Notes: generated by a model not told the origin, from the sequence alone. 64,000 nt of DNA from Minisyncoccota bacterium (GCA_041663185.1 JBAZQY010000001.1:117298-181297); one strand, 5' to 3'; shown: positions 6,057 through 61,790, counted from the stretch's first letter. Made by a program: numbers and translations.

Positions 6057-7793
6057 TTAAAAGTTATAAACTTCTTGAAGTGGTATATCTCCTCGAATAC
6101 TTTTGACGATTGCATCTTCACGAATTGTCAGCATTCCACGTGAGCGAGCGAGCTTATAGATATCTTGCTCAACTGGATGTTTGAGGATTATCGCTTGCAT
6201 CTCCTTATCAATTTTAAACATTTCAAATAGTGATATACGGCCTTTTAGTCCGGAGGCGCATTCGGCCGACGGCACCGCTTCATAAATAGTGTTGCCGATA
6301 TTTAATTTCGATTTAAATTCTTCTGGCAAATCAGCAAATTGTTTATCAAACATTAATTTGGTCGCTTCATCAATCGGAATTTCGTGTTTAGAATTTGGAT
6401 GAATTCTGCGAGCTAGACGTTGAGCCATACAGAGAATCAAAGTTGGAGCAATTAGATATGGGTCTATTCCCATATCAATCAAACGTGGAATTGCCCCGAC
6501 AGAATTATTGGTGTGAAGTGTTGAAAGAACCAAGTGCCCGGTCAGGGCTGCTTGAATAGCAAGCTCGGCAGTTTCTTTATCACGAATTTCTCCGACTAAT
6601 ATAATATTGGGGTCTTGACGTAGAATTGACCTGAGTCCTGAAGCAAAAGTGTATCCAATCTCGGGCATAATCTGAGATTGATTAACTCCATCAATTTTAT
6701 ATTCAACTGGATCTTCTAGGGAAACAATATTCTTATCTTCCTTATCGAGTTCATTCAACATTGAGTAGAGAGTAGTTGTTTTACCACTTCCAGTTGGACC
6801 AGTAATAAGAAGTAATCCATATGGGCGAGACAATGAATCTCGAATAAGGACTAAATTCTCTTTTGACAATCCCAGGTCGTCGAGTTTCTGAATCCCTCTT
6901 TGAGAATCCAAAATACGCATCACAATCTTTTCTCCATAATAAGCCGGCATAGTCGAGACACGGAAATCAATTTTTCGGCCTTCAATTTTGGCTGAGAAGC
7001 CACCATCTTGTGGTTTACGTTTTTCATCGAGTCGTAATCGCGCCAAAATTTTAATACGCGCAACGACGCCATTATAGACAGAAAGTGGTAAAGTCAAAGA
7101 AGTATGTAAAATACCATCAACACGAAAACGCACTTTGACTCTATCCCCTGTATTTTCTATATGGATATCCGAAGCTAAACCTTCGGTGGCATTACGGAGA
7201 ATAACGGCGACAATCTTGACTATCGGCGCTTCTTCAACTATTTTCTCATCACCTGCTTTCTGAGTATCTGGTGATTTAATATTTGTTTCAATAATAACTC
7301 CACTGTCATTATAATCTGCAAACTCAGAATCAAGCTCACTGAGAGCTTGGTCAACTTCGGTACCACTTGTCCCTTCATACATTTCTATTAATTTATTGTA
7401 GACAGAAGTTGCAATCAAAAATAATTTAAATGGTTTATTTAATTTGGAGGTAATGAAAGTCAGCGCATCTATGGCTTGAATATTCTCTGGATCAACAATC
7501 CCAACTTCTAGAAAATTATCTGTTAAATTAATTGGAATAAAATGATAGATTTTAGCTGCATCAACTGGAATTAATCTTAGGATGGTCGGATCAACACTTC
7601 TCGGGTCAACTTTTTTAATTGGCACACCAAAAATATCTCCTTTGACTTCAAGAATTTTTTCTTCATCTAAATCGAAAACAACAAGTGCCTGGTCAATACT
7701 GCCCTCATATTTTTCATTAGCAATTTTGACGATTTCAGGTATTTGGTCTTCTTTTATAATTTCACGTTTTACAAGTTCTTCTAAAAGTATCAT
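6057..7793 (-). CDS. pilB: Type IV pilus assembly ATPase PilB (GspE family)
   Basis: N-terminal GSPII_E_N-like domain. Walker A LLITGPTGSGKTTTLYS and the T2SS-E secretion-ATPase core are present. Confidence 0.85.
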   Translation of the reverse strand: MILLEELVKREIIKEDQIPEIVKIANEKYEGSIDQALVVFDLDEEKILEVKGDIFGVPIKKVDPRSVDPTILRLIPVDAAKIYHFIPINLTDNFLEVGIVDPENIQAIDALTFITSKLNKPFKLFLIATSVYNKLIEMYEGTSGTEVDQALSELDSEFADYNDSGVIIETNIKSPDTQKAGDEKIVEEAPIVKIVAVILRNATEGLASDIHIENTGDRVKVRFRVDGILHTSLTLPLSVYNGVVARIKILARLRLDEKRKPQDGGFSAKIEGRKIDFRVSTMPAYYGEKIVMRILDSQRGIQKLDDLGLSKENLVLIRDSLSRPYGLLLITGPTGSGKTTTLYSMLNELDKEDKNIVSLEDPVEYKIDGVNQSQIMPEIGYTFASGLRSILRQDPNIILVGEIRDKETAELAIQAALTGHLVLSTLHTNNSVGAIPRLIDMGIDPYLIAPTLILCMAQRLARRIHPNSKHEIPIDEATKLMFDKQFADLPEEFKSKLNIGNTIYEAVPSAECASGLKGRISLFEMFKIDKEMQAIILKHPVEQDIYKLARSRGMLTIREDAIVKSIRGDIPLQEVYNF

Positions 7794-32815: not shown

Positions 32816-35554
32816 TTACTCGCGACGATACTTGGCCATTATTTCCTCTTCAATTTCTTCGCGAGGACGACCATACTTAAGATATGATAATTCTTTTATT
32901 TTTTCAACTATTTCGGTATTGCCTTTTGGTGTTAAGCTCCAATGTGAAGTCATACTGAAAGGTTTTGTTGGTGTCCCATTCACAAGCATACTGACATAAG
33001 AATTAAAGTTATCTAGTTTCATAATATCTGAAGCGGTAAATGTCGGCTTGAATTTCTGCTCAACAAAATTTGCATCTTCGGTACTGATACGATAGACCGC
33101 CATAGATCCAACGTTTCCAAAAACTGCATTCTTAATATTTTCTTCAAGTTGTGAGATGTACTGGTGAGCAATAGTCAAAGACAAGCGATATTTGCGGGCT
33201 TCTGAAAGAATTGAGGCGATAGAATCGGTTGTGACATTTTGGAATTCATCGATGTAAAGATAAAAATCATTCATTTTCTGGCCATACATATCAACACGAG
33301 AAAGGGCGGCCATTTGAATTTTACCAACTAACAACAAACCAATAAGGTTAGCGTTAACTTCTCCAAGTCTTCCTTTTGAAAGATTAACTAGTAAAATCTT
33401 TTTATTGTCCATTATTTCACGGAAATTAAATACTGATTTTTCTTGTAGGACAACTGGGCGCATGATATCGTTCGAAATAAAGTTATCGAACTTGGAAGTA
33501 ATATAGGGGACAAAGTTTGCAATAGATTGATCACCGGTAGTTTTTTCGGCATTTTTCCAAAACTCCACAACGATTGGATTTTTACATTTTGCCATCAGCG
33601 CATGACGATATTCATCATTACCCAAAATACGACTAATTTCAAGAAGAGTCGCCGGATGATCAGGATCATCCATCGCAAGGAAAGCACTATTTTTGAAATA
33701 CTGATCAAACATAGGGCCTCCAGTGGCTTTCATGTCAAAAAGTTTATTGAAAATCGCCATCAGTTCGTTGACCACAAATGTCTTCTGCTCAGGATATTTT
33801 GGATCATATTCAAGCATGTTGAGGCCCATTGGGCGTGCAGTATATGCTGGGTCAAAATAAATAACATCATCAATACGTTCTCTTGGAATATAACTTAAAA
33901 TATCTTGAATATCACTGCCGTGTGGATCAATAAAACAACAACCGTCACCATTTTTAATATCTTGGGCAATCATGTTCTTCAAAATTGTCGTCTTACCAGT
34001 TCCTGTCTGTCCGATGACGTACATGTGGCGCAACCTATCTTCACGAGTCATACGAACTTCAGTGTCTTTGCCATGATAACTATTTATACCAAGCAAAATA
34101 CCCTGGTCTCCCATTTCCATTGGAGCTGGAGCAATACCCGCCTTTGCTTGTTTAAGTTGTGGAGAAACAATCCCATATGGAAAATGGAAAATTGTCGCTA
34201 ATTCTTTAAGGTTAAGGGGCATTCCATATTCATTTGAGAATGTTCGATAAGAAAAATCATGGACTAGTTGTGTTAACTCCTTTCCTTCGGGATGTCTAAA
34301 ATTAAATCCATTGCGATCTGCTTCTGTGAATTGGTTAAATGTCGATTCGACGTCTGCAAGAATTTGTTTTGCCCGCGACTCACTTTCAGCTGAAGCAACG
34401 ATACGGATATTTACCGCCATGATAGTGCTTTTCATCTTTTCGGTAATATTTTCTACCGCCTTATCATTCACCTTTTTTTCTTCTTTCTTTTTTGATGAAC
34501 CTAAAAATAAATCTCCAGCCAATGATTTAAATTCTTTGGTTATCTGGCGAGTTAAACTTCCAGCTGTTCGAACCGACATTCCTTCTTTGACATCAGCTAG
34601 CATAATATGAAACTTCTTCATTATTTCATCATCTTCAGGGCAAATTGTAAACTGAATAGATGCTCCTTCTCCACTTTTTTTAAGTTTGGTAAAAAGATTT
34701 AAAATAATATTTAGTGGATCATGATCAATCGCATCGTATAATTTTATTGGGTAAACATCATGGTGGGCAAGCTTGGCATATGAACCAACAACAGATGCAT
34801 TTTCAGAAAAAATATTATAATCATCTGGAATCTCAACAATTTTAGCATTAGAATGAACTCCAAATAACTGTTTTTCAAATAAATCTGCTTTGTTACTTGG
34901 GACAGAAGCATAAAAAACAAAATTATCACTACCTTCAGCAAGAGCAATCTCTAAAGTAAAATGATTTCGACTATAATTCTGCCGTCCCTCGCCGACTGAG
35001 TGCATACCTGCGTAAAATTGCTCCATTGCACTCAATAATTCTTTCAATCCTTTTTTATTACCTGTCTCATCATCAATATCAGGAAGAGTTATTTCAAAAA
35101 GTCGCATATCAAGTGATTTGAAAAGTGGCGTTCCTTCTTTCAGTCCTGGAACTTTGTGGGTACTGTATAAATATTGAACAAGAAAACGGTGGAAGTCATC
35201 ATCAATGTGTGGATTATTCATTTTTTCGACAACAGAAAGTGCATTTGAAATCCCCTTATCAAGTAAAATGCCGAGTAATTCTTCCATTTTGTTATCGTGA
35301 GTTTCTGGTTTTAATCTTAAAACTAATTCTTCGATAACATTCTGTTTGACAACAGCACTTTTGTGCATGACTTCTTCCGGCTCATATTTTTTATATTCAT
35401 TTATCACATTGTGAGCAAGTTGCTCTTTGTTCACTTCTTGACCTTGTCCACTAATGGCTTTCTCTCGTTCAGCAATATGTGCCCGCAAAAATTCCAATTC
35501 TTCTTGTGGAGTTTTGAATTTGGGTGCGTTGTTTAAGTTTAATCCTTCCAACAT
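32816..35554 (-). CDS. Large P-loop ATPase with a TraD/VirD4/TraG-like (DUF87/AAA_10) C-terminal domain and a ~480-aa N-terminal domain of unknown function
   Basis: Walker A VIGQTGTGKTT followed by CCFIDPHGS. Walker B/DExx-like LYIDEFQN and a C-terminal ...TIAHQYISQL... are present. No TM helices were found. Confidence 0.5.
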   Translation of the reverse strand: MLEGLNLNNAPKFKTPQEELEFLRAHIAEREKAISGQGQEVNKEQLAHNVINEYKKYEPEEVMHKSAVVKQNVIEELVLRLKPETHDNKMEELLGILLDKGISNALSVVEKMNNPHIDDDFHRFLVQYLYSTHKVPGLKEGTPLFKSLDMRLFEITLPDIDDETGNKKGLKELLSAMEQFYAGMHSVGEGRQNYSRNHFTLEIALAEGSDNFVFYASVPSNKADLFEKQLFGVHSNAKIVEIPDDYNIFSENASVVGSYAKLAHHDVYPIKLYDAIDHDPLNIILNLFTKLKKSGEGASIQFTICPEDDEIMKKFHIMLADVKEGMSVRTAGSLTRQITKEFKSLAGDLFLGSSKKKEEKKVNDKAVENITEKMKSTIMAVNIRIVASAESESRAKQILADVESTFNQFTEADRNGFNFRHPEGKELTQLVHDFSYRTFSNEYGMPLNLKELATIFHFPYGIVSPQLKQAKAGIAPAPMEMGDQGILLGINSYHGKDTEVRMTREDRLRHMYVIGQTGTGKTTILKNMIAQDIKNGDGCCFIDPHGSDIQDILSYIPRERIDDVIYFDPAYTARPMGLNMLEYDPKYPEQKTFVVNELMAIFNKLFDMKATGGPMFDQYFKNSAFLAMDDPDHPATLLEISRILGNDEYRHALMAKCKNPIVVEFWKNAEKTTGDQSIANFVPYITSKFDNFISNDIMRPVVLQEKSVFNFREIMDNKKILLVNLSKGRLGEVNANLIGLLLVGKIQMAALSRVDMYGQKMNDFYLYIDEFQNVTTDSIASILSEARKYRLSLTIAHQYISQLEENIKNAVFGNVGSMAVYRISTEDANFVEQKFKPTFTASDIMKLDNFNSYVSMLVNGTPTKPFSMTSHWSLTPKGNTEIVEKIKELSYLKYGRPREEIEEEIMAKYRRE

Positions 35555-55316: not shown

Positions 55317-55513
55317 ATATTTTTTTATTGGTTGATAAAAAGAATAAAATATACGAGAACCTTACTTTATTCAAACTATCAACATAAATTATTAATAATA
55401 TTTACCTCGCCTCAAAGCGAGGTTACCGCCTCTAGGCGATAATTGATGACTCTCATACTAGCAAATCTAAAAATAAAGTCAACACTGCAAAAATTTAGAT
55501 TGACAATGGGCAC

Positions 55514-55541
55514 AAAAAATCCCCTCGCGAGGGGATTTTTT
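55514..55541. terminator. Bidirectional intrinsic terminator downstream of the giant surface-protein gene
   Basis: aaaaaatcccctc-gcga-ggggattttttg. Confidence 0.65.
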
Positions 55542-55553
55542 GTGCTACTTATT

Positions 55554-58500
55554 TTAGTTCTCAATTATTATTGGATTAATAACTGTGATTTTTTGAGTAT
55601 CCTGAGCCTGAGCTAATGATCCTCCATCTGTACAAGTAATCGTATAAGTCGTCGTTGTTAATGGGAAAACTGTCGTACTTCCAGAAGTTGCTCCACCGGT
55701 TTCAAATACATCACCAGTACAAGATGTTGCTCCGGTTGAAGTCCAGACAAGATCTGATGATTTACCTTTGAAGATAATTGGCTTAGTTGCCGAAAGATCG
55801 ACAGTCACCGCTCCTCCACCACCAGAACATGCTTGTGTATTACATATTTGAGTCATTTCAGCTGGAGGAGGACAATCTGCTCCTCCATTTTGAGGTACTG
55901 GATTTGTACATGTTCTTATACATGTTTGAGTGCCTCCACCACAAGGAACACTACAAGCACTCCAATCTCCTGCACCACAAATACTCCAACCACCATCAAT
56001 TGGTATCACTGCACATTTTGCTCCATCCCAATCTGTCCCCAAAACACACGCTGTAGTTACATTCGTTTGTGCTAATAGAATCTCACTATTATAAAGGAAG
56101 AAATTAACACCCAAATCATTATGAGGTACAGTAAATGATTGAGAACCATTATTTCCATTGACTGGACTTGGAATACCTGTAGGACTAGTAACGGCAGATG
56201 TCCCAATAGGGTTTATCGTTGTCCAGGTTAGAGTTTGAGTACAGCTAGTACCATTCAAAGGAATAAAACAAGTAGGGTTAAAAGGCAGAAGTGTTCCAGA
56301 CATATCATTACTTACTGTTATTGTCGTCCACTCACCACTACAATTGTTTAATTCATTTGATTCTGGAATATCTCCAGTATCTATTTGTGAACTCTTGTCA
56401 GCACACACTCGCATATAATATGTCCCCACATTAAATGTAAATGCTCGCGAAGTAGTAGCTGATGCTCCTTGAGCAAGAGCATTCATTTCGGGAATAACTG
56501 GATAATCTGTCACTATTCCATTGCCATTAGGTAATGTTGATAATTGAAATAGATTAGTAAATTTATTCACAGTTGAAGCATTACCTTGATTAGTAATAGT
56601 TGAAGAAAATAATGTAGATACCCCAGGAGATACTGTTGTAGGAGTAGGAGAAGAGGCGATCAGGTCTGGTCCTGACATAGTTCCAGGGACTGTAATCATT
56701 GTCCATTCTCCACAGTTATTACTTTCGCTTGATTCCCCTACAACCCCATAATTAGATGCTGAGTCTTTATCGGCACATACACGCATATAATATATTCCTG
56801 CTTGAGTGAATTTATAATTTTTAGTCAAGACACGTGTCTCTCCACTTGCAAGTGCAATTGTCGCAATTACCCCTACGTCATCAGGGGCATTAAATCCACT
56901 TGGACTATTAGTCATTTGAACTAAGTTTTTAAAACCTATAACTGTTCCTGCTGTTCCAATATTTGATATCGTCACACTAAATGGAGTGTCAACTCCAACT
57001 AGCGCTGTTGTTGGTGTAATAGACGAAGTAATAAGATCAGGTAATGAACCCCCTACCGTGATAGATGTCCAGCCACTACAATTATTTCCTTCATTTGATT
57101 CAATTGTAATAGTTCCAGGATTATTAGGAGGCATGTCTGCACAAGCCTGGATGTCATAGGTTCCTGCTAGAGAGAAAGTAATAGCACGTGATGTAACAGC
57201 TGTTGCTCCTGGACCAAGAGGTGACATTGGAGCACCTAAAACTGGGTAATCAACTACTACTCCAATACTATTTCTTGTCTGAAATTTATTTGCAAAACTT
57301 CCTCCAGTTGAAGCAATACCCCGATTTGTAATAGTTGAATAAAACGTTGTGGAAACTCCTGTTTGGGCGACAGTTGGAATAGGCGTAGAGGCAATAAGAT
57401 CTGGTTGTCCTCCAAATAACGCAACGGTAATGGCAGTCCAAGGACTACAATTATTATTTTCATTATATTCGTTAGTAATAGTTCCAGGATTATCTGGTGG
57501 AAGGTCAGCACATACTCGCATATAATATGTACCAGCAGTATTAAATGTAATTGATTTTGAAGTAGGAGTTGAAGATCCCGGACCAAGAGCAGACATTAGG
57601 GGACTTACATTCACCGGATAATTAATCAAACCAAGAGGATTATTGTCACCATCAAATCCCGTTGCTGTCTGGAACAAATTACTAAATCCCGAACCAGTAG
57701 ATCCACCACCTTGATTAGTAATAGTTGATGAATAAGTTTTTGCTATATTAGGAAGCGCCATTGTTGGAGAGGGAGCAGAAGCAACAAGATCTGGAGGACC
57801 AACTGGAGAAGTTACTGTGATCATTATCCATGGACTACTACAATTATTTCCTTCATTTGATTCTGGCTCTGAGCCATTCATTGACATATTTTTATCAGCA
57901 CAAACACGCATATAATATGCCCCGGCTGAAAAGTTAATAGATCTTTGGGTAGTTGTTGATGCTCCTGAAGCAAGAATTGATGTTGAAGAAGTCACATAAT
58001 TTACTACTCCTTCAGGACCATTATCACCAATACTTGTAGCTGTTTGAAATACATTTGTAAAAGTTGACAAAGTAGAAGCATTCCCTTGATTAGTGATGGT
58101 TGAATAAAACGTCGTGGTTCCTGGGCTTGCAGTTGTAGGAGTGGGAGTTGAAGCAATCAAATCTGGTAATGAACCAGATGCGACTGTGATTGTTGTCCAA
58201 CTACTACAATTATTTCCTTCGTCTGATTCATTATCAATAGTTCCAGGACTAACAGGAGGGAGATCGGCACAGACTCGCATACCATATTCTCCTGCTGTAT
58301 TAAATTTTATTGATTTTGAGGTTGCATTCGATTCTCCTCCAAGCAAGATATCCATATTAGGAGAAACGGCATAATCTGTTATAGTTCCTTCTCCGTTTGG
58401 TAATGTTGAAGTCTGGAATTTATTTGCAAATGATCTCTCAGTTGAGCCTTGTCCCTGGTTAGTAATCACAGCTGAGAAAGTTTTATACACTCCCGGAACA

Positions 58501-59717
58501 GCCGTTGTTGGATTTGGGGCAGAAGCGATAAGATCAGCGACGGTTGCAGTACATTTTGCTCCATCCCAACTACTCCCCGTAGCACAATTCAAAGTAATCG
58601 TCTGACTTGCAAGATCATTCGAGGCATAAGTTGGATTGTTTAGTGTATTATTTTGTCCATCAACTCTATTTTTAGAAATTAAAGTTCCTGTTCCGCTAGT
58701 TGCTCCTAGTGGAATTACACCAATTCCAGAAAGAGTTACGAGACTAGAGTTTCCTGAGGTTCCAACAGTACTATTATTACCGTTCCAAACAAAAGTATTG
58801 TAATTATCTTTCGGACTAGTTGTTGTCCAATTCATAGAAATCTGACAACTATTGCCATTAGCTGGAATTATACAAGAAGATGATCCAGCCGGAACCAGAG
58901 TTCCAGATTGTCCTTGAACATTTTCTGTGGAACTTGAAAAAATAGGATTTGATATATCAGGACCACATTTTAATTGGAAAAGGTTTGTATCGTTCTGGTT
59001 TAGAACATCTATATTTTGATTAAAAACAAAAGACGAAAAAGGAAGAAGGGCTTCCGTTGCACCTGAAGGAAGCACTTTAAATGCTGTAGTTCCACTATTT
59101 TTCAATACACAACTATCTCCTGTAGGGAAATCCCATGCAGTAACAGTCAAATATGCTGTCCCTATACCAGAGGTGTTAGAATCATTCTTCTTTACTATAT
59201 TTTTAATTCGAGTTTGATCTTTTGAAAGAGAAACTGCTGCTACCAAAACCGTAGCTTCTCCAGAAATTGAGCCGTTGGAGCCAGTACAAACTATAGGGTA
59301 AGAAGTGTGTTCTGTAGGGCTCACAGAAATACTTCCTCCTGTCGCAGTAGAACCGAGTACTCCCGTATCACAACTATCAGCACCAACTGATGACCAAGTA
59401 ATAGTTGAATTTTGTCCAGGATATATATATGCCGGGTTTGCAGTAACATTAATATCCATTCCTTCACCCCCGCCACCATTATTATCACCTATCCATTGGC
59501 ACCATGTTGCTTTGTTTAAATGGTAATATGGGTCTTGGTCACATTCAATGTCTGTATGGCGATTTGTGCAATGTTCATTTTCCTGATGAAATGGTTCCGT
59601 GTCTGGAACAGTATAATCAACAGTACAATATCCTTCTGCATTAACAATCGAACTTGAACTCAAAAAAATAGTAAAAATAAAGACAAACAATAAAAGAGAA
59701 TATTTAAATAGTTTCAT
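55554..59717 (-). CDS. Giant (1387 aa) secreted/surface protein with ~6 tandem CARDB-like repeats and a thrombospondin-type-1-like (TSP1) Cys module
   Basis: Signal peptide MKLFKYSLLLFVFIFTIFLSSSSIVNA. The ~110-aa repeats each have PDLIAS.P.PT...G....F...ITN.G.A and MRVCAD....E.NE.NNCS.WT.ITV. The segment WSICGAGDWSACSVPCGGGTQTCIRTC matches the TSP1 pattern. Confidence 0.6.
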   Translation of the reverse strand: MKLFKYSLLLFVFIFTIFLSSSSIVNAEGYCTVDYTVPDTEPFHQENEHCTNRHTDIECDQDPYYHLNKATWCQWIGDNNGGGGEGMDINVTANPAYIYPGQNSTITWSSVGADSCDTGVLGSTATGGSISVSPTEHTSYPIVCTGSNGSISGEATVLVAAVSLSKDQTRIKNIVKKNDSNTSGIGTAYLTVTAWDFPTGDSCVLKNSGTTAFKVLPSGATEALLPFSSFVFNQNIDVLNQNDTNLFQLKCGPDISNPIFSSSTENVQGQSGTLVPAGSSSCIIPANGNSCQISMNWTTTSPKDNYNTFVWNGNNSTVGTSGNSSLVTLSGIGVIPLGATSGTGTLISKNRVDGQNNTLNNPTYASNDLASQTITLNCATGSSWDGAKCTATVADLIASAPNPTTAVPGVYKTFSAVITNQGQGSTERSFANKFQTSTLPNGEGTITDYAVSPNMDILLGGESNATSKSIKFNTAGEYGMRVCADLPPVSPGTIDNESDEGNNCSSWTTITVASGSLPDLIASTPTPTTASPGTTTFYSTITNQGNASTLSTFTNVFQTATSIGDNGPEGVVNYVTSSTSILASGASTTTQRSINFSAGAYYMRVCADKNMSMNGSEPESNEGNNCSSPWIMITVTSPVGPPDLVASAPSPTMALPNIAKTYSSTITNQGGGSTGSGFSNLFQTATGFDGDNNPLGLINYPVNVSPLMSALGPGSSTPTSKSITFNTAGTYYMRVCADLPPDNPGTITNEYNENNNCSPWTAITVALFGGQPDLIASTPIPTVAQTGVSTTFYSTITNRGIASTGGSFANKFQTRNSIGVVVDYPVLGAPMSPLGPGATAVTSRAITFSLAGTYDIQACADMPPNNPGTITIESNEGNNCSGWTSITVGGSLPDLITSSITPTTALVGVDTPFSVTISNIGTAGTVIGFKNLVQMTNSPSGFNAPDDVGVIATIALASGETRVLTKNYKFTQAGIYYMRVCADKDSASNYGVVGESSESNNCGEWTMITVPGTMSGPDLIASSPTPTTVSPGVSTLFSSTITNQGNASTVNKFTNLFQLSTLPNGNGIVTDYPVIPEMNALAQGASATTSRAFTFNVGTYYMRVCADKSSQIDTGDIPESNELNNCSGEWTTITVSNDMSGTLLPFNPTCFIPLNGTSCTQTLTWTTINPIGTSAVTSPTGIPSPVNGNNGSQSFTVPHNDLGVNFFLYNSEILLAQTNVTTACVLGTDWDGAKCAVIPIDGGWSICGAGDWSACSVPCGGGTQTCIRTCTNPVPQNGGADCPPPAEMTQICNTQACSGGGGAVTVDLSATKPIIFKGKSSDLVWTSTGATSCTGDVFETGGATSGSTTVFPLTTTTYTITCTDGGSLAQAQDTQKITVINPIIIEN

Positions 59718-59900
59718 ACTTATCTAGCCATAGCTATTTGCGTAGGCGAATTAATTTAATAATGATGTCAAAAACTAAATTTATTTAGTTATGTAAATTA
59801 TACCATAAAATGTAATACAAAAATATAAAGAGTAGTTATCCACAAATAAAAAAGAGGCTACTTTATAAAAGCAGCCTCAAAGTTACTAACAAAAATCTAT

Positions 59901-61058: not shown

Positions 61059-61790
61059 CTATTCCATATCTAAAATAACCTCTTGTGGTAAATTTTCATT
61101 ATTTTTTAAATTAAATGATTCAATCCAATTTAAAATTTCCTTTTTCTGTTTTTCTTCACCCCCTAATCTATGTAATAAAAAATCTTTTTTAATTATCGAT
61201 GGAAAATTTTTTTGACCAACATAGTCCAAATAACTGCTCCATCTGTATTTATTCAAAAAATCAATAGCTTTTTCGAGATCATTAATTTTTCCCTCTCTCC
61301 ACTCTTTAAATTTATAATCAAGCGGATTTAAGTGGATATATATCGGTAAATACATCAAATGTGAATCTTTTTTTAGATTGACTGATTTAAATTTCCCCTG
61401 AAAAAGTGCCCCAGTTCTTTCATATTTTTTATTAAAATAATTTGTATATCCAGTTCCTAATTTCCGCATGAATTCTGTAATTCCATTTTCTGTCTTTTGT
61501 CTAACCATCAAATGAAAATGATTATCCATCAAACAATAAGCCAAAATCTCCACCAATACTTCCCTAGGTTTTCTCGTAATATTAGGAAGTCCGACTTCCT
61601 TAAGTTTATTATTTTTTGACTTGAGGTATAAAGCTAAGTTAATTGTTGGGTTCTTATCATTAAACTCAAATAAATCGTGAACGAAGCGAAATCTATCATC
61701 GTCATCCATGAAAATATTGCGTTTATCTACACCTCTATTATAAATATGATAGATTTCTCCAAAAACTAAATGTGTTTTTCTTAATGACAT
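61059..61790 (-). mobile_element. RAYT-like Y1/HUH transposase-like protein (REP-associated tyrosine transposase family)
   Basis: YHIYNRG, DDDDRFRF, HUH motif YCLMDNHFHLMV, then ...GTGYTNYFNKKYERTGALFQGKFKS...IYIHLNP, matching the family signature. An internal REP-like palindrome lies at 61582..61603. Confidence 0.6.

What the first reader, a model, noticed from the sequence alone, without database searches (positions are those of the whole stretch)
55554..59717. 1387-aa surface protein combining CARDB-like tandem repeats with a eukaryote-like thrombospondin type-1 module
Six ~110-aa repeats match the CARDB pattern (PDLIAS.P.P....G....F...ITN.G.A ... CAD....E.NE.NNCS.WT.ITV). Near the C-terminus, WSICGAGDWSACSVPCGGGTQTCIRTCTNP fits the TSP1 WxxWxxCSxxCGxGxQxRxRxC pattern. 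It has a signal peptide, its own promoter and terminator, and is wedged between tuf and a lipoprotein gene. It is a candidate adhesin for host-cell attachment.
Basis: partly seen in the sequence, partly recalled or inferred. Interest (0 to 1): 0.5.

Follow-up and report, generated by a model that had tools for sequence, protein, structure and literature searches.

The report
CPR surface protein with thrombospondin repeat
A tiny uncultured bacterium (Candidatus Paceibacterota) encodes a long, secreted, bead-on-a-string surface protein with six CARDB domains and one genuine thrombospondin type-1 repeat, but such repeats turn out to be fairly common in ultra-small symbiotic and other bacteria and archaea, so this is a typical member of that group and not a unique eukaryotic import.

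Summary
ORF 55554-59717 (-) encodes 1387 aa with Pfam CARDB (E 1.5e-41, six units) and TSP_1 (41.4 bits against a cutoff of 21.6). The TSR matches human thrombospondin-1 TSR3 at about 50% identity, models at pLDDT 83-96, and retrieves TSP-1, UNC5 and properdin TSRs by fold. The full layout is signal peptide, 4-Cys module, A, mid, X, CARDBx6, X, TSR, A. All modules are beta-rich, every one has an even Cys count, and no known anchor motif is present. NCBI already lists it as a "CARDB domain-containing protein" of a Candidatus Paceibacterota MAG.

The "eukaryote-like" reading needs revising. A narrow scan found TSRs at 70 loci in prokaryotic species-representative genomes. Half are CPR or DPANN, and two are cultured isolates. 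The same module set recurs in a Nomurabacteria protein. Codon usage in the TSR is native and the basic ligand groove is missing.

The TSR is a rare 8-Cys variant, with Cys at the W2 and R2 layer positions, probably forming a fourth disulfide.

The adhesin role is plausible by analogy but untested. This is a new member of a known kind, of moderate interest.

The parts
55554..59717 (-). Complete CDS, 1387 aa plus stop. Identical to NCBI MFA6251204.1 / MFA6385157.1, 'MAG: CARDB domain-containing protein [Candidatus Paceibacterota bacterium]'.
59637..59717 (-). Sec-type signal peptide, aa 1-27 (MKLFKYSLLLFVFIFTIFLSSSSIVNA|EG)
   Evidence: Sequence features. It is the only hydrophobic stretch. Homologues share the same cleavage context.
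59469..59636 (-). N-terminal 4-Cys module, aa 28-83, with the conserved motif DPYYHLNKATWCQW. No Pfam family.
   Evidence: Conserved in P0187, P0253, P0284, P0223 and P0229. Low model confidence.
59229..59468 (-). Domain A copy 1, aa 84-163: Ig-like, 'TWSSxGAxSC' type, 2 Cys
   Evidence: Internal repeat with aa 1299-1381. 2233 proteins match the 395-aa N-terminal query at E<=1e-3, and most listed best stretches fall in aa ~89-161. pLDDT is about 88.
58917..59228 (-). 'Mid' domain, aa 164-267: beta-sandwich, 2 Cys
58542..58916 (-). Domain X copy 1, aa 268-392: 4 Cys, ends ...CATGSSWDGAKC
   Evidence: Internal repeat with aa 1137-1238. Also found in L010, L058, P0005, P0014, P0015, P0183 and P0229.
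56310..58541 (-). Six tandem CARDB domains, aa 393-1136 (units start at aa 393, 517, 641, 771, 892 and 1016). Each has PDL(I/V)(A/T)S...ITNxG...RVCAD...ESNExNNC and one Cys pair.
   Evidence: Pfam PF07705 E=1.5e-41, 6 stretches
56004..56309 (-). Domain X copy 2, aa 1137-1238
55824..56003 (-). Thrombospondin type-1 repeat, aa 1239-1298. Group-1 Cys pattern plus two extra Cys: C1247 at the W2 position and C1266 at the R2 position.
   Evidence: Pfam TSP_1 41.4 bits. PDB phmmer to TSP-1 TSR3, E about 1e-10. AF2 pLDDT 83-96. Foldseek top hits 3r6b, 7yyk and 1lsl. Layer mapping from PMC2173040.
55557..55823 (-). GGGG linker, domain A copy 2 and the conserved C-terminal tail ...VINPIIIEN-COOH, aa 1299-1387
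55509..55546 (-). Intrinsic-terminator-like hairpin (17-bp palindromic stem, GGGGATTTTTTGTG on the coding strand), starting 8 nt after the stop codon
59854..59878 (-). Terminator-like hairpin plus T-run after the upstream lipoprotein gene, which insulates the CDS
59797..59805 (-). Candidate extended -10 promoter element TGgTATAAT, about 80 nt upstream of the ATG (read by eye, not listed by the scan)
   Evidence: Sequence. The scan does not list it.

Best explanation
The gene encodes a Sec-exported, disulfide-stabilised, rod-like modular surface protein of a Candidatus Paceibacterota (CPR/Patescibacteria) bacterium. Shown: the layout is signal peptide, 4-Cys module, three Ig-like domains (A, mid, X), six CARDB domains, X, one TSR, A, and a short conserved C-terminal tail. 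Also shown: it belongs to a family with a conserved N-terminal head and a conserved tail but a variable middle. The middle is assembled by shuffling a common pool of modules (CARDB, X, A, fn3, PKD, TSR). The TSR is a genuine group-1 thrombospondin type-1 repeat and one of many prokaryotic TSRs. Inferred: the TSR was placed between X and the terminal A domain by module shuffling within prokaryotes, not by a recent import from a eukaryote. In this copy the W2/R2 cation-pi layer is replaced by a fourth disulfide (C1247-C1266). The protein extends as a fibre of roughly 13 modules from the cell and mediates contact with other cells or surfaces (host recognition or attachment), with the conserved end or ends docking it to the envelope. 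Because the TSR has one Arg, no Lys and a net charge of about -3, it most likely serves as a rigid spacer or protein-contact module and not as a glycosaminoglycan binder as in animals.
For: Domain calls come from Pfam CARDB and TSP_1, both above cutoff. Internal repeats define A, X and CARDBx6. The TSR is about 50% identical to human TSP-1 TSR3, models at pLDDT 83-96 and retrieves TSP-1, UNC5, properdin and ADAMTS13 TSRs by fold. The head models as three Ig-like sandwiches whose best matches are stalks of giant bacterial adhesins (5irb, 6xi1, 2yn5), phage Hoc, titin and NCAM. Export is supported by a single N-terminal hydrophobic segment, 38 Cys with an even number in every module, and a mature pI of 4.26. 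Family membership: P0229 (HEAD-CARDB-X-CARDBx4-X-A), P0183 and P0233 share head and/or tail, and 376-504-aa proteins carry the head alone. Prokaryotic TSRs: 70 loci, 29 labelled CPR and 6 DPANN by my tally of the record titles. Pfam confirms them in Nomurabacteria (with CARDB), Paceibacterota, Woesearchaeota, Saccharibacteria, Microgenomates, Myxococcota, Bdellovibrio, Desulfatibacillum alkenivorans DSM 16219 and Falsochrobactrum ovis DSM 26720. L010 has X-X-CARDB-X-TSR-CARDB-TSR-CARDB, and L022/L034 have TSR-A-A. Native codon usage: TSR GC3 is 0.067 against 0.195 for the whole gene. Fourth disulfide: C1247 and C1266 map to the adjacent W2 and R2 layers, and extra Cys on strands A and B co-occur (2 both, 1 single, 152 neither; Fisher p=2.5e-4). 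An adhesion-type use of prokaryotic TSRs is hinted at by a Bdellovibrio protein that joins a type IV pilin N-methylation motif to four TSRs. Giant surface proteins with adhesion domains are proposed to mediate host attachment in CPR bacteria (PMC8080830).
Against: There is no binding, localisation or expression data. No recognised anchor is present: no LPXTG, lipobox, C-terminal TM helix or SLH, so retention on the cell is an assumption. 'CARDB' is a name, not a demonstrated adhesion function. The CPR/DPANN enrichment among TSR loci is biased, because the scan patterns were derived from CPR-like TSRs. The window TSR is as similar to exon-like fragments that are probably from animals (60-65%) as to prokaryotic TSRs (62-65%). 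Sequence similarity alone therefore does not settle the direction or age of any inter-domain transfer.
Confidence: 0.6

Rival explanations
1. It is a structural surface-coat or S-layer-like protein. It forms or decorates the envelope as an abundant structural fibre and has no specific host-binding role.
For: It is large, acidic (pI 4.26), rich in Thr, Ser, Gly and Asn, and has a signal peptide. The transcription unit is insulated by strong terminators next to the highly expressed tuf/S10 region. The Deinococcus HPI S-layer protein is among the fold hits of the head (8cka). Conserved head and tail could be lattice or anchoring contacts.
Against: There are no SLH or other S-layer-associated Pfam or NCBIfam hits. 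Only one close copy exists, with no orthologue above about 35% identity among billions of proteins. That fits a fast-evolving, interaction-type protein better than a core envelope component. GC3 is lower than that of tuf (0.195 against 0.302), so there is no codon-usage sign of very high expression (weak evidence).
Confidence: 0.2
2. It is a secreted, non-attached binding protein, for example one that captures polysaccharide or particles, or an exoprotein that coats prey or host. It is released from the cell and not displayed on it.
For: No known covalent or membrane anchor is present. Other TSR proteins in these lineages carry carbohydrate-related partner domains, including F5/8 type C, DUF642 and Rha78A-like Ig.
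Against: This protein has no recognisable carbohydrate-binding or catalytic domain. The conserved head and the C-terminal tail suggest specific docking.
Confidence: 0.12
3. The TSR was recently acquired from a eukaryote and mimics host matrix proteins. In that case the bacterium would attach to a eukaryotic host, as apicomplexan TRAP and CSP do.
For: The TSR is about 50% identical to human TSP-1 TSR3. It is 60-65% identical to exon-like TSR fragments on megabase contigs, and named hits from the same search include Nematostella and Owenia.
Against: Prokaryotic TSRs are equally similar (62-65%) and numerous, and they share flanking prokaryotic modules. The TSR's third-position GC (0.067) is fully adapted to the AT-rich genome. 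The basic Trp-Arg groove used for GAG and CD36 binding is missing: there is one Arg, no Lys and a net charge of about -3. The O-fucosylation consensus CSx(S/T)CG reads CSVPCG here.
Confidence: 0.06
4. It is an assembly or binning artefact: a chimeric ORF joining bacterial CARDB repeats to a contaminating eukaryotic TSR exon.
For: MAG-derived sequence; repeats can mis-assemble.
Against: The identical 1387-aa protein is called on independent assemblies (two Logan runs, plus NCBI, JGI and ENA records) with the same neighbours. The CARDB units are only 49-66% identical at the DNA level, too divergent to collapse. GC is uniform across modules. The reading frame is continuous and flanked by tuf and the ribosomal protein genes.
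Confidence: 0.01

Closest known systems
Thrombospondin type-1 repeat (TSR; Pfam TSP_1 PF00090), prototype human thrombospondin-1 TSR2/TSR3 (PDB 1LSL, 3R6B, 7YYK)
   Same: All six canonical Cys are present with group-1 spacing. W1 and W3, the R1 arginine and Gln at R3 (as in TSR3) are kept, as are the CSVxCGGG, NPxPQxGG and QICNxQxC motifs. Identity is about 49-53%. The three-stranded fold is predicted with high confidence and retrieves TSRs first.
   Different: W2 is replaced by Cys with a 2-residue insertion, and R2 is replaced by Cys, giving a probable fourth disulfide. There is a single Arg, no Lys and a net negative charge, so no basic recognition groove. There is no O-fucosylation consensus. 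The host is a bacterium and the flanking modules are prokaryotic.
Other prokaryotic TSR-bearing surface proteins, e.g. the Candidatus Nomurabacteria RIFCSPLOWO2_01_FULL_39_17 protein (L010) and P0016
   Same: They draw on the same module pool. L010 is X-X-CARDB-X-TSR-CARDB-TSR-CARDB, with Pfam TSP_1 at 43 bits and CARDB at 36 bits. P0016 is TSRx3 + CARDB + a terminal A-like domain and ends ...YQEF.
   Different: Order and copy number differ. Their TSRs are the common short 6-Cys form (WSxxWS...TQTRTC) or group-2-like. None has the window's head plus six-CARDB stalk plus 8-Cys TSR.
Head/tail family of CARDB multidomain proteins (P0229, P0183, P0233; also P0002-P0007)
   Same: They share the signal peptide, the 4-Cys (D/E)PY(Y/F)HL module and/or the A-mid-X head, CARDB arrays, a terminal A domain and a C-terminal ...I(I/K/F)E(N/Q) tail. 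Identity over the head is 30-35%.
   Different: My domain HMMs detected no TSR in them. Other inserts (fn3-like or Cys-rich segments) occupy the X-to-A junction.
Giant repetitive bacterial adhesins with Ig-like stalks (MpIBP, SiiE, RTX adhesins) and giant surface proteins of CPR bacteria (Vampirococcus lugosii, PMC8080830)
   Same: The build is a bead-on-a-string of beta-sandwiches, and fold matches of the head fall on these stalks. The proposed role is in host contact.
   Different: There is no T1SS/RTX signal, no Ca-binding BIg repeats identified, no demonstrated ligand-binding tip and no known anchor.
Apicomplexan TSR adhesins (TRAP, CSP)
   Same: They are microbial surface proteins that use a TSR for contact with another cell. 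Fold hits are weak (4hqo, 3vdj; E about 0.05-0.09).
   Different: Those are group-2 or alpha-TSRs with basic GAG-binding faces, TM anchors and motor-coupled tails. None of these features is present here.

Membership tests
Thrombospondin type-1 repeat (TSP_1, PF00090) | Profile-HMM score above Pfam's gathering threshold | tested here: met
   41.4 bits against a cutoff of 21.6, E=1.6e-10, aa 1250-1297. The sub-family models TSP1_spondin (25 against 41) and TSP1_ADAMTS (17.7 against 23.8) fall below their cutoffs.
Thrombospondin type-1 repeat (TSP_1, PF00090) | Six conserved cysteines in the group-1 arrangement (C1 layer from the end of strand B and the start of strand C, C2 layer, and a bottom disulfide) | tested here: met
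   C1255, C1259, C1270, C1282, C1292 and C1297 align column for column with TSP-1 TSR3. The pattern is defined in PMC2173040. The actual bonding was not measured.
Thrombospondin type-1 repeat (TSP_1, PF00090) | WxxWxxW tryptophan ladder on strand A | tested here: not met
   W1 (W1244) and W3 (W1252) are present. W2 is Cys1247, followed by a 2-residue insertion. Accepted TSRs also vary here: prokaryotic short forms have WxxW, and PMC2173040 notes W substitutions.
Thrombospondin type-1 repeat (TSP_1, PF00090) | RxRxR arginine layers on strand B that stack with the Trp residues | tested here: inconclusive
   R1 is Arg1268, R2 is Cys1266, and R3 is Gln1264, the same residue as in TSP-1 TSR3. One cation-pi layer is retained and one is replaced.
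Thrombospondin type-1 repeat (TSP_1, PF00090) | Elongated three-stranded antiparallel fold | tested here: met
   The AF2 segment has pLDDT 83-96. The Foldseek top hits are 3r6b, 7yyk and 1lsl at E 3e-6 to 1e-5, followed by UNC5, properdin, ADAMTS13 and BAI1.
Thrombospondin type-1 repeat (TSP_1, PF00090) | Positively charged front-face groove (a functional feature of GAG/CD36-binding TSRs, not required for membership) | tested here: not met
   K+R = 1 and D+E = 4, pI 4.05.
CARDB (PF07705) | Profile-HMM score above the gathering threshold, in repeated units | tested here: met
   141 bits against a cutoff of 22.7, 6 stretches. The six units are also defined by self-comparison.
CARDB (PF07705) | Beta-sandwich fold as in solved CARDB-type cell-surface proteins | not tested
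   There is only a weak sequence match to 2l0d 'cell surface protein' (E=0.064). No CARDB unit was modelled.
CARDB (PF07705) | Cell-adhesion function implied by the name | not testable with these tools
   No experimental data. The name reflects a predicted relationship only.
Sortase-anchored Gram-positive adhesins (MSCRAMM type) | C-terminal LPXTG-like motif, hydrophobic helix and basic tail | tested here: not met
   There is no LPxT[GAS] or NPxTG, and no hydrophobic segment outside aa 1-27. The protein ends ...NPIIIEN.
Bacterial lipoproteins / S-layer (SLH) proteins | Lipobox Cys after the signal peptide, or SLH domains | tested here: not met
   No lipobox. No SLH or other S-layer family in Pfam or NCBIfam.
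Head/tail CARDB surface-protein family of CPR-type organisms (unnamed) | Signal peptide followed by the 4-Cys (D/E)PY(Y/F)HL module and the A-mid-X head, and a terminal A domain with a [IFY]xE[NFQ]-COOH tail | tested here: met
   Alignments to P0187, P0253, P0284, P0223, P0229, P0183 and P0233. The tail pattern occurs in 19 of 166 retrieved proteins against 0.95% at internal positions.

The most novel reading that the evidence does not exclude
The TSR is not an animal invention lent to microbes. It would instead be a native and widespread prokaryotic cell-contact module, concentrated in organisms that live attached to other cells (CPR bacteria, DPANN archaea, Bdellovibrio-like and myxobacterial predators). 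It has diversified there into group-1, group-2, ADAMTS-like and disulfide-substituted forms. On this reading eukaryotic TSRs derive from, or still exchange with, this prokaryotic pool. The window protein's 8-Cys TSR would be an example of a glycosylation-independent way to stabilise the fold, using a disulfide in place of a C-mannosylated Trp/Arg layer.
Probability: 0.15. Interest if true: 0.7.

Novelty: new member of a known kind. Interest (0 to 1): 0.4.

Why it matters
Large modular surface proteins are the main candidates for how ultra-small CPR bacteria recognise and hold on to their hosts, yet almost none has been characterised. This one gives a clear, confidently annotated example. It also puts a defined family on the map, with a conserved head, a conserved C-terminal tail and a shuffled middle.

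The wider by-product may matter more. TSRs are treated in the literature I could search as animal and apicomplexan adhesion modules (PMC3417536). Here they appear at dozens of loci in bacterial and archaeal genomes, at 60-65% identity to TSRs on exon-like fragments that are probably animal. That bears on the origin of a major extracellular-matrix domain.

The W2/R2-to-disulfide substitution is a natural experiment on how the TSR fold can be stabilised without eukaryotic C-mannosylation.

Tried and rejected
1. NCBIfam scan of the whole protein returned nothing meaningful.
2. A whole-protein BLAST self-comparison returned only the identity hit. I replaced it with tiled comparisons.
3. A word-indexed search with TSR plus A2 gave only 4 hits. 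The profile search was swamped by short exon-like fragments without taxonomy, so it could not give a prokaryote/eukaryote census.
I repeated it with 3 sequences. The resulting patterns are narrow and CPR-biased, so enrichment cannot be quantified.
5. The AF2 model of X2-TSR-A2 was confident only for the TSR. Coordinates are not exposed, so the C1247-C1266 distance could not be measured.
6. PDB sequence searches gave no hits for domain A and only a marginal 2l0d hit for CARDB.
7. Literature searches on TSRs in bacteria, CPR, DPANN and archaea, on CARDB in CPR, and on the two SRA run ids found nothing relevant. Absence from this open-access library does not prove the point is undescribed.
8. A viral-contig scan found one TSR hit among 2.9 million contigs, so I dropped phage-mediated spread as an explanation.
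9. I searched for further copies of the head motif in the window and in all fetched loci. Only the gene itself carries it.
10. Recent tandem duplication of the CARDB units is rejected, because nucleotide identity between units is 49-66%.

Full report
**1. The observation**

The ORF is real. It lies at 55554..59717 on the minus strand, starts with ATG and encodes 1387 aa, making it the longest ORF in the window. Pfam gives CARDB (PF07705) at E=1.5e-41 and 141 bits in six stretches. It gives TSP_1 (PF00090) at E=1.6e-10 and 41.4 bits against a curated cutoff of 21.6, at aa 1250-1297. NCBIfam adds nothing.

The six CARDB units begin at aa 393, 517, 641, 771, 892 and 1016 and are 121-130 aa long. 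Each carries PDL(I/V)(A/T)S…ITNxG…RVCAD…ESNExNNC. They are 37-70% identical as protein and 49-66% identical as DNA. The array is therefore old and diverged, and it poses no assembly risk.

Further upstream are an IS200-like Y1 transposase gene and a divergently oriented gene that looks like nusA.

Terminator-like hairpins sit on both sides of the gene, and such hairpins are enriched in the region (11 found against 3.9 expected). The promoter is only a by-eye extended -10, TGgTATAAT at 59805-59797. The scan does not list it, and promoter-like sites are not enriched.

**2. Whole architecture**

Tiled self-comparison shows two more repeated module types. Domain A occurs at aa 84-163 and 1299-1381. 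Domain X occurs at aa 268-392 and 1137-1238. The layout is: signal peptide (1-27), 4-Cys module (28-83), A, 'mid' (164-267), X, CARDBx6, X, TSR (1239-1298), GGGG linker, A.

The only hydrophobic segment is the signal peptide. There is no LPXTG, lipobox or C-terminal helix. The mature protein has pI 4.26 and 38 cysteines, with an even number in every module. This is what an exported, disulfide-bonded protein would look like.

An AF2 model of aa 28-395 (mean pLDDT 70, about 88 for domain A) shows three Ig-like beta-sandwiches. Its Foldseek matches are tandem-Ig stalks of giant bacterial adhesins (5irb, 6xi1, 2yn5), phage Hoc, titin, NCAM and the D. radiodurans HPI S-layer protein. No enzyme or known ligand-binding fold appears.

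**3. The TSR**

The 60-residue module aligns to human thrombospondin-1 TSR3 with a per-domain E of about 1e-10. Identity is about 53% by my count of that alignment, and Foldseek reports 49% over 61 columns.

In an AF2 model of aa 1137-1387, the TSR part has pLDDT 83-96 while the poorly sampled X2 and A2 parts are unreliable. The top structural matches are TSP-1 TSR2-3 (3r6b, 7yyk, 1lsl; E 3e-6 to 1e-5), followed by UNC5, properdin, ADAMTS13 and BAI1.

I mapped the layers using Tan et al. 2002 (PMC2173040), where the order is C1-W1-R1-W2-R2-W3-R3-C2:
- The six canonical Cys follow the group-1 pattern.
- W1244 is W1 and W1252 is W3.
- R1268 is R1, and Q1264 is R3, as in TSR3.
- Two additional Cys occupy W2 (C1247, followed by a 2-residue insertion) and R2 (C1266).

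W2 and R2 are adjacent layers on neighbouring strands, so a fourth disulfide replacing one cation-pi layer is the natural reading. I could not measure it because coordinates are not exposed.

Indirect support comes from 155 group-1 TSR copies that I could parse. Extra Cys on strand A and strand B occur together in two (the window and an Oligoflexia protein, L007), alone in one, and in neither in 152 (Fisher p=2.5e-4). The numbers are small.

The module has one Arg, no Lys and four acidic residues. It therefore lacks the basic groove that Tan et al. link to GAG and CD36 binding. The O-fucosylation site CSx(S/T)CG reads CSVPCG.

**4. Where it comes from and who else has it**

The identical protein is on record as NCBI MFA6251204.1 / MFA6385157.1, 'MAG: CARDB domain-containing protein [Candidatus Paceibacterota bacterium]'. 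It is also on independent Logan, JGI and ENA assemblies with the same upstream genes.

There is no close orthologue. The best full-length hit is 32% identical over 45% of the query. An exhaustive HMMER search with aa 1-395 gave three results:
- 2233 proteins match at E<=1e-3. Nearly all of the listed matches fall on domain A (aa ~89-161), which has no match in any Pfam scan I ran, and single proteins have up to 45 matched stretches.
- The whole head is conserved as a unit in stand-alone proteins of 376-504 aa (P0187, P0253, P0284, P0223). It consists of the signal peptide, a 4-Cys module with (D/E)PY(Y/F)HL(N/S)(K/R)xxxCxW, then A, mid and X.
- Full-length relatives P0229, P0183 and P0233 combine this head (in whole or in part) with CARDB arrays, X, a terminal A domain and a C-terminal tail like the window's.

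The protein is therefore one member of a head/tail family with a shuffled middle.

**5. TSRs in prokaryotes**

I scanned the 185,579 GTDB species-representative genomes with only two narrow peptide patterns. This returned 70 confirmed loci at 38-67% identity to the window TSR.

By record title, 29 loci are CPR lineages: Saccharibacteria, Gracilibacteria, Nomurabacteria, Paceibacteria, Microgenomates, Minisyncoccia, Shapiro-, Komeili-, Wolfe- and Peribacteria, and Absconditabacterales. Six are DPANN archaea. Four are Bdellovibrionales or Oligoflexia and three are Myxococcota. The rest are scattered and include the cultured isolates Desulfatibacillum alkenivorans DSM 16219 and Falsochrobactrum ovis DSM 26720 (my tally).

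My HMMs find 144 TSR copies in 64 of these proteins. Four forms appear:
- short forms (WxxW…TQTRTC)
- long forms (WxxWxxW…RxRxC)
- group-2-like forms (NCxGxWS…)
- ADAMTS-like forms with long B-C spacing

Pfam's own models confirm them well above cutoff. Examples are Desulfatibacillum (TSP1_ADAMTS, 304 bits), Myxococcota (368 bits), a complete Woesearchaeota genome (77 bits), Paceibacterota (TSP_1, 56 bits) and Nomurabacteria (TSP_1 43 bits plus CARDB 36 bits).

The Nomurabacteria protein L010 reads X-X-CARDB-X-TSR-CARDB-TSR-CARDB. L058 reads X-TSR-X-A, and Saccharibacteria L022 and L034 read TSR-A-A. P0016 combines TSRs with CARDB. So CARDB plus TSR is a recurrent combination drawn from a shared module pool.

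Only one TSR hit turned up in 2.9 million viral contigs.

The scan patterns came from CPR-like sequences, so the apparent CPR/DPANN enrichment is a lead and not a measurement.

**6. Is it a eukaryotic import?**

The window TSR is 60-65% identical to short exon-like fragments on megabase contigs. These end in …CPG and are flanked by junk, which is typical of animal exons. Named hits from the same search are Nematostella and Owenia. The window TSR is equally similar (62-65%) to prokaryotic TSRs. Similarity therefore does not give a direction of transfer.

Three things argue against a recent import into this genome:
- The TSR's third-position GC is 0.067, against 0.195 for the gene and 0.358 overall GC for the window.
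- Its flanks are prokaryotic modules.
- The TSR-A pairing recurs in other CPR proteins.

Aravind et al. 2012 (PMC3417536) treat TSP1 as an animal domain passed to apicomplexans. I found no paper in the searchable library that discusses TSRs in CPR, DPANN or other prokaryotes. That does not prove none exists.

**7. Function**

Shown:
- It is exported, modular, all-beta and disulfide-rich.
- It has no catalytic domain.
- It belongs to a family with conserved ends.

Inferred:
- It forms an extended fibre of about 13 modules displayed on the cell and used for contact with other cells or surfaces.

This fits what is proposed for giant surface proteins of CPR bacteria (PMC8080830). It also fits a Bdellovibrio protein that joins a type IV pilin N-methylation motif to four TSRs.

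Nothing here shows binding, and no known anchor is present. A structural coat protein or a released binding protein remain live alternatives. A host-mimicry role towards a eukaryote is unlikely. An assembly artefact is effectively excluded.

**8. Verdict**

The protein is a new member of a known kind, the modular CARDB/Ig-like surface proteins of CPR bacteria. NCBI already carries an automatic annotation for it. Two modest novelties emerge: a rare 8-Cys TSR variant, and membership of a head/tail family with an unrecognised C-terminal tail motif.

The broader lead is the abundance and diversity of TSRs in prokaryotes, especially episymbionts. It is more interesting than the single gene, and it needs an unbiased census and a phylogeny. 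Interest 0.4.

Noticed in passing
window 55557-55590 (-), aa 1377-1387; also P0229, P0183, P0233, P0005, P0015, P0014, P0010, P0016, P0003, P0007, P0017, P0018, P0248, P0006: There is a conserved extreme C-terminal tail right after a terminal A domain...P-I-[IFY]-x-E-N-COOH or ...[PT]-x-F-x-E-F-COOH. The window ends VINPIIIEN. The pattern occurs in 19 of 166 retrieved proteins (12 of the 20 CARDB-type hits) against 0.95% at internal positions. No TM helix follows it, so it is unlike the LPXTG, PEP-CTERM or PGF-CTERM signals. It may be an unrecognised sorting or attachment signal.
   Followed up: partly
window 58542-59636 (-), aa 28-392: The N-terminal 'head' is conserved as a unit. It consists of a 4-Cys module with (D/E)PY(Y/F)HL(N/S)(K/R)xxxCxW, then A, mid and X. 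It also exists as stand-alone proteins of 376-504 aa (P0187, P0253, P0284, P0223). No part of it matched any Pfam family.
   Followed up: partly
L053:4993-6924 (uncultured Bdellovibrio sp.): This protein has a prokaryotic N-terminal methylation (type IV pilin) motif followed by four spondin-type TSRs (TSP1_spondin 87 bits). It looks like a pilin-like TSR protein in a predatory bacterium.
   Followed up: no
L029:4783-9267 (uncultured Saccharibacteria); L014:3748-6876 (Woesearchaeota): The Saccharibacteria protein combines thrombospondin type-3 repeats (128 bits) with a type-1 repeat and DUF642. The Woesearchaeota protein combines TSP1_ADAMTS, TSP_1, MopE metal-binding motifs and Big_9.
   Followed up: no
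L043, L046, L049: Nearly identical TSR proteins (…VYTWNYGSYGSCSVSCGGGTQTRTATCKNSS…) sit in MAGs labelled Clostridiaceae, Patescibacteria group and Gammaproteobacteria, all at GC 0.30-0.37. This suggests mis-binning or a shared mobile element.
   Followed up: no
L059:4264-6162 (Desulfatibacillum alkenivorans DSM 16219): A cultured sulfate reducer encodes a protein with a Lamin Tail Domain followed by a tandem array of ADAMTS-type TSRs (TSP1_ADAMTS 304 bits, 7 Pfam stretches). This is a clean, contamination-free example of a bacterial TSR array.
   Followed up: no
window 61059-61790 (-): An IS200-like Y1 transposase gene (Y1_Tnp, 35 bits) lies two genes upstream, between the divergent nusA-like gene and the lipoprotein gene. 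The two Logan contigs carrying the gene (L001, L002) end within about 40 nt after it, on the tuf side. This hints that nusA to tuf is a strain-variable insertion site.
   Followed up: no
window 6057-7793 (-) and 32816-35554 (-): The window also encodes a PilB-type type II/IV secretion ATPase (T2SSE, 393 bits) and a 912-aa VirD4/TraG-like coupling protein (TrwB_AAD_bind, TraG-D_C). Both are other cell-contact machinery in the same window.
   Followed up: no
L007:4699-6351 (Oligoflexia MAG): This is the only other TSR found with an extra Cys pair on strands A and B (GGWTGWSCAACSKTCGGGTQSCTRSC). Pfam reports no family for this protein at E<=1e-4, so Cys-substituted TSRs may be under-detected by the standard model.
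   Followed up: partly
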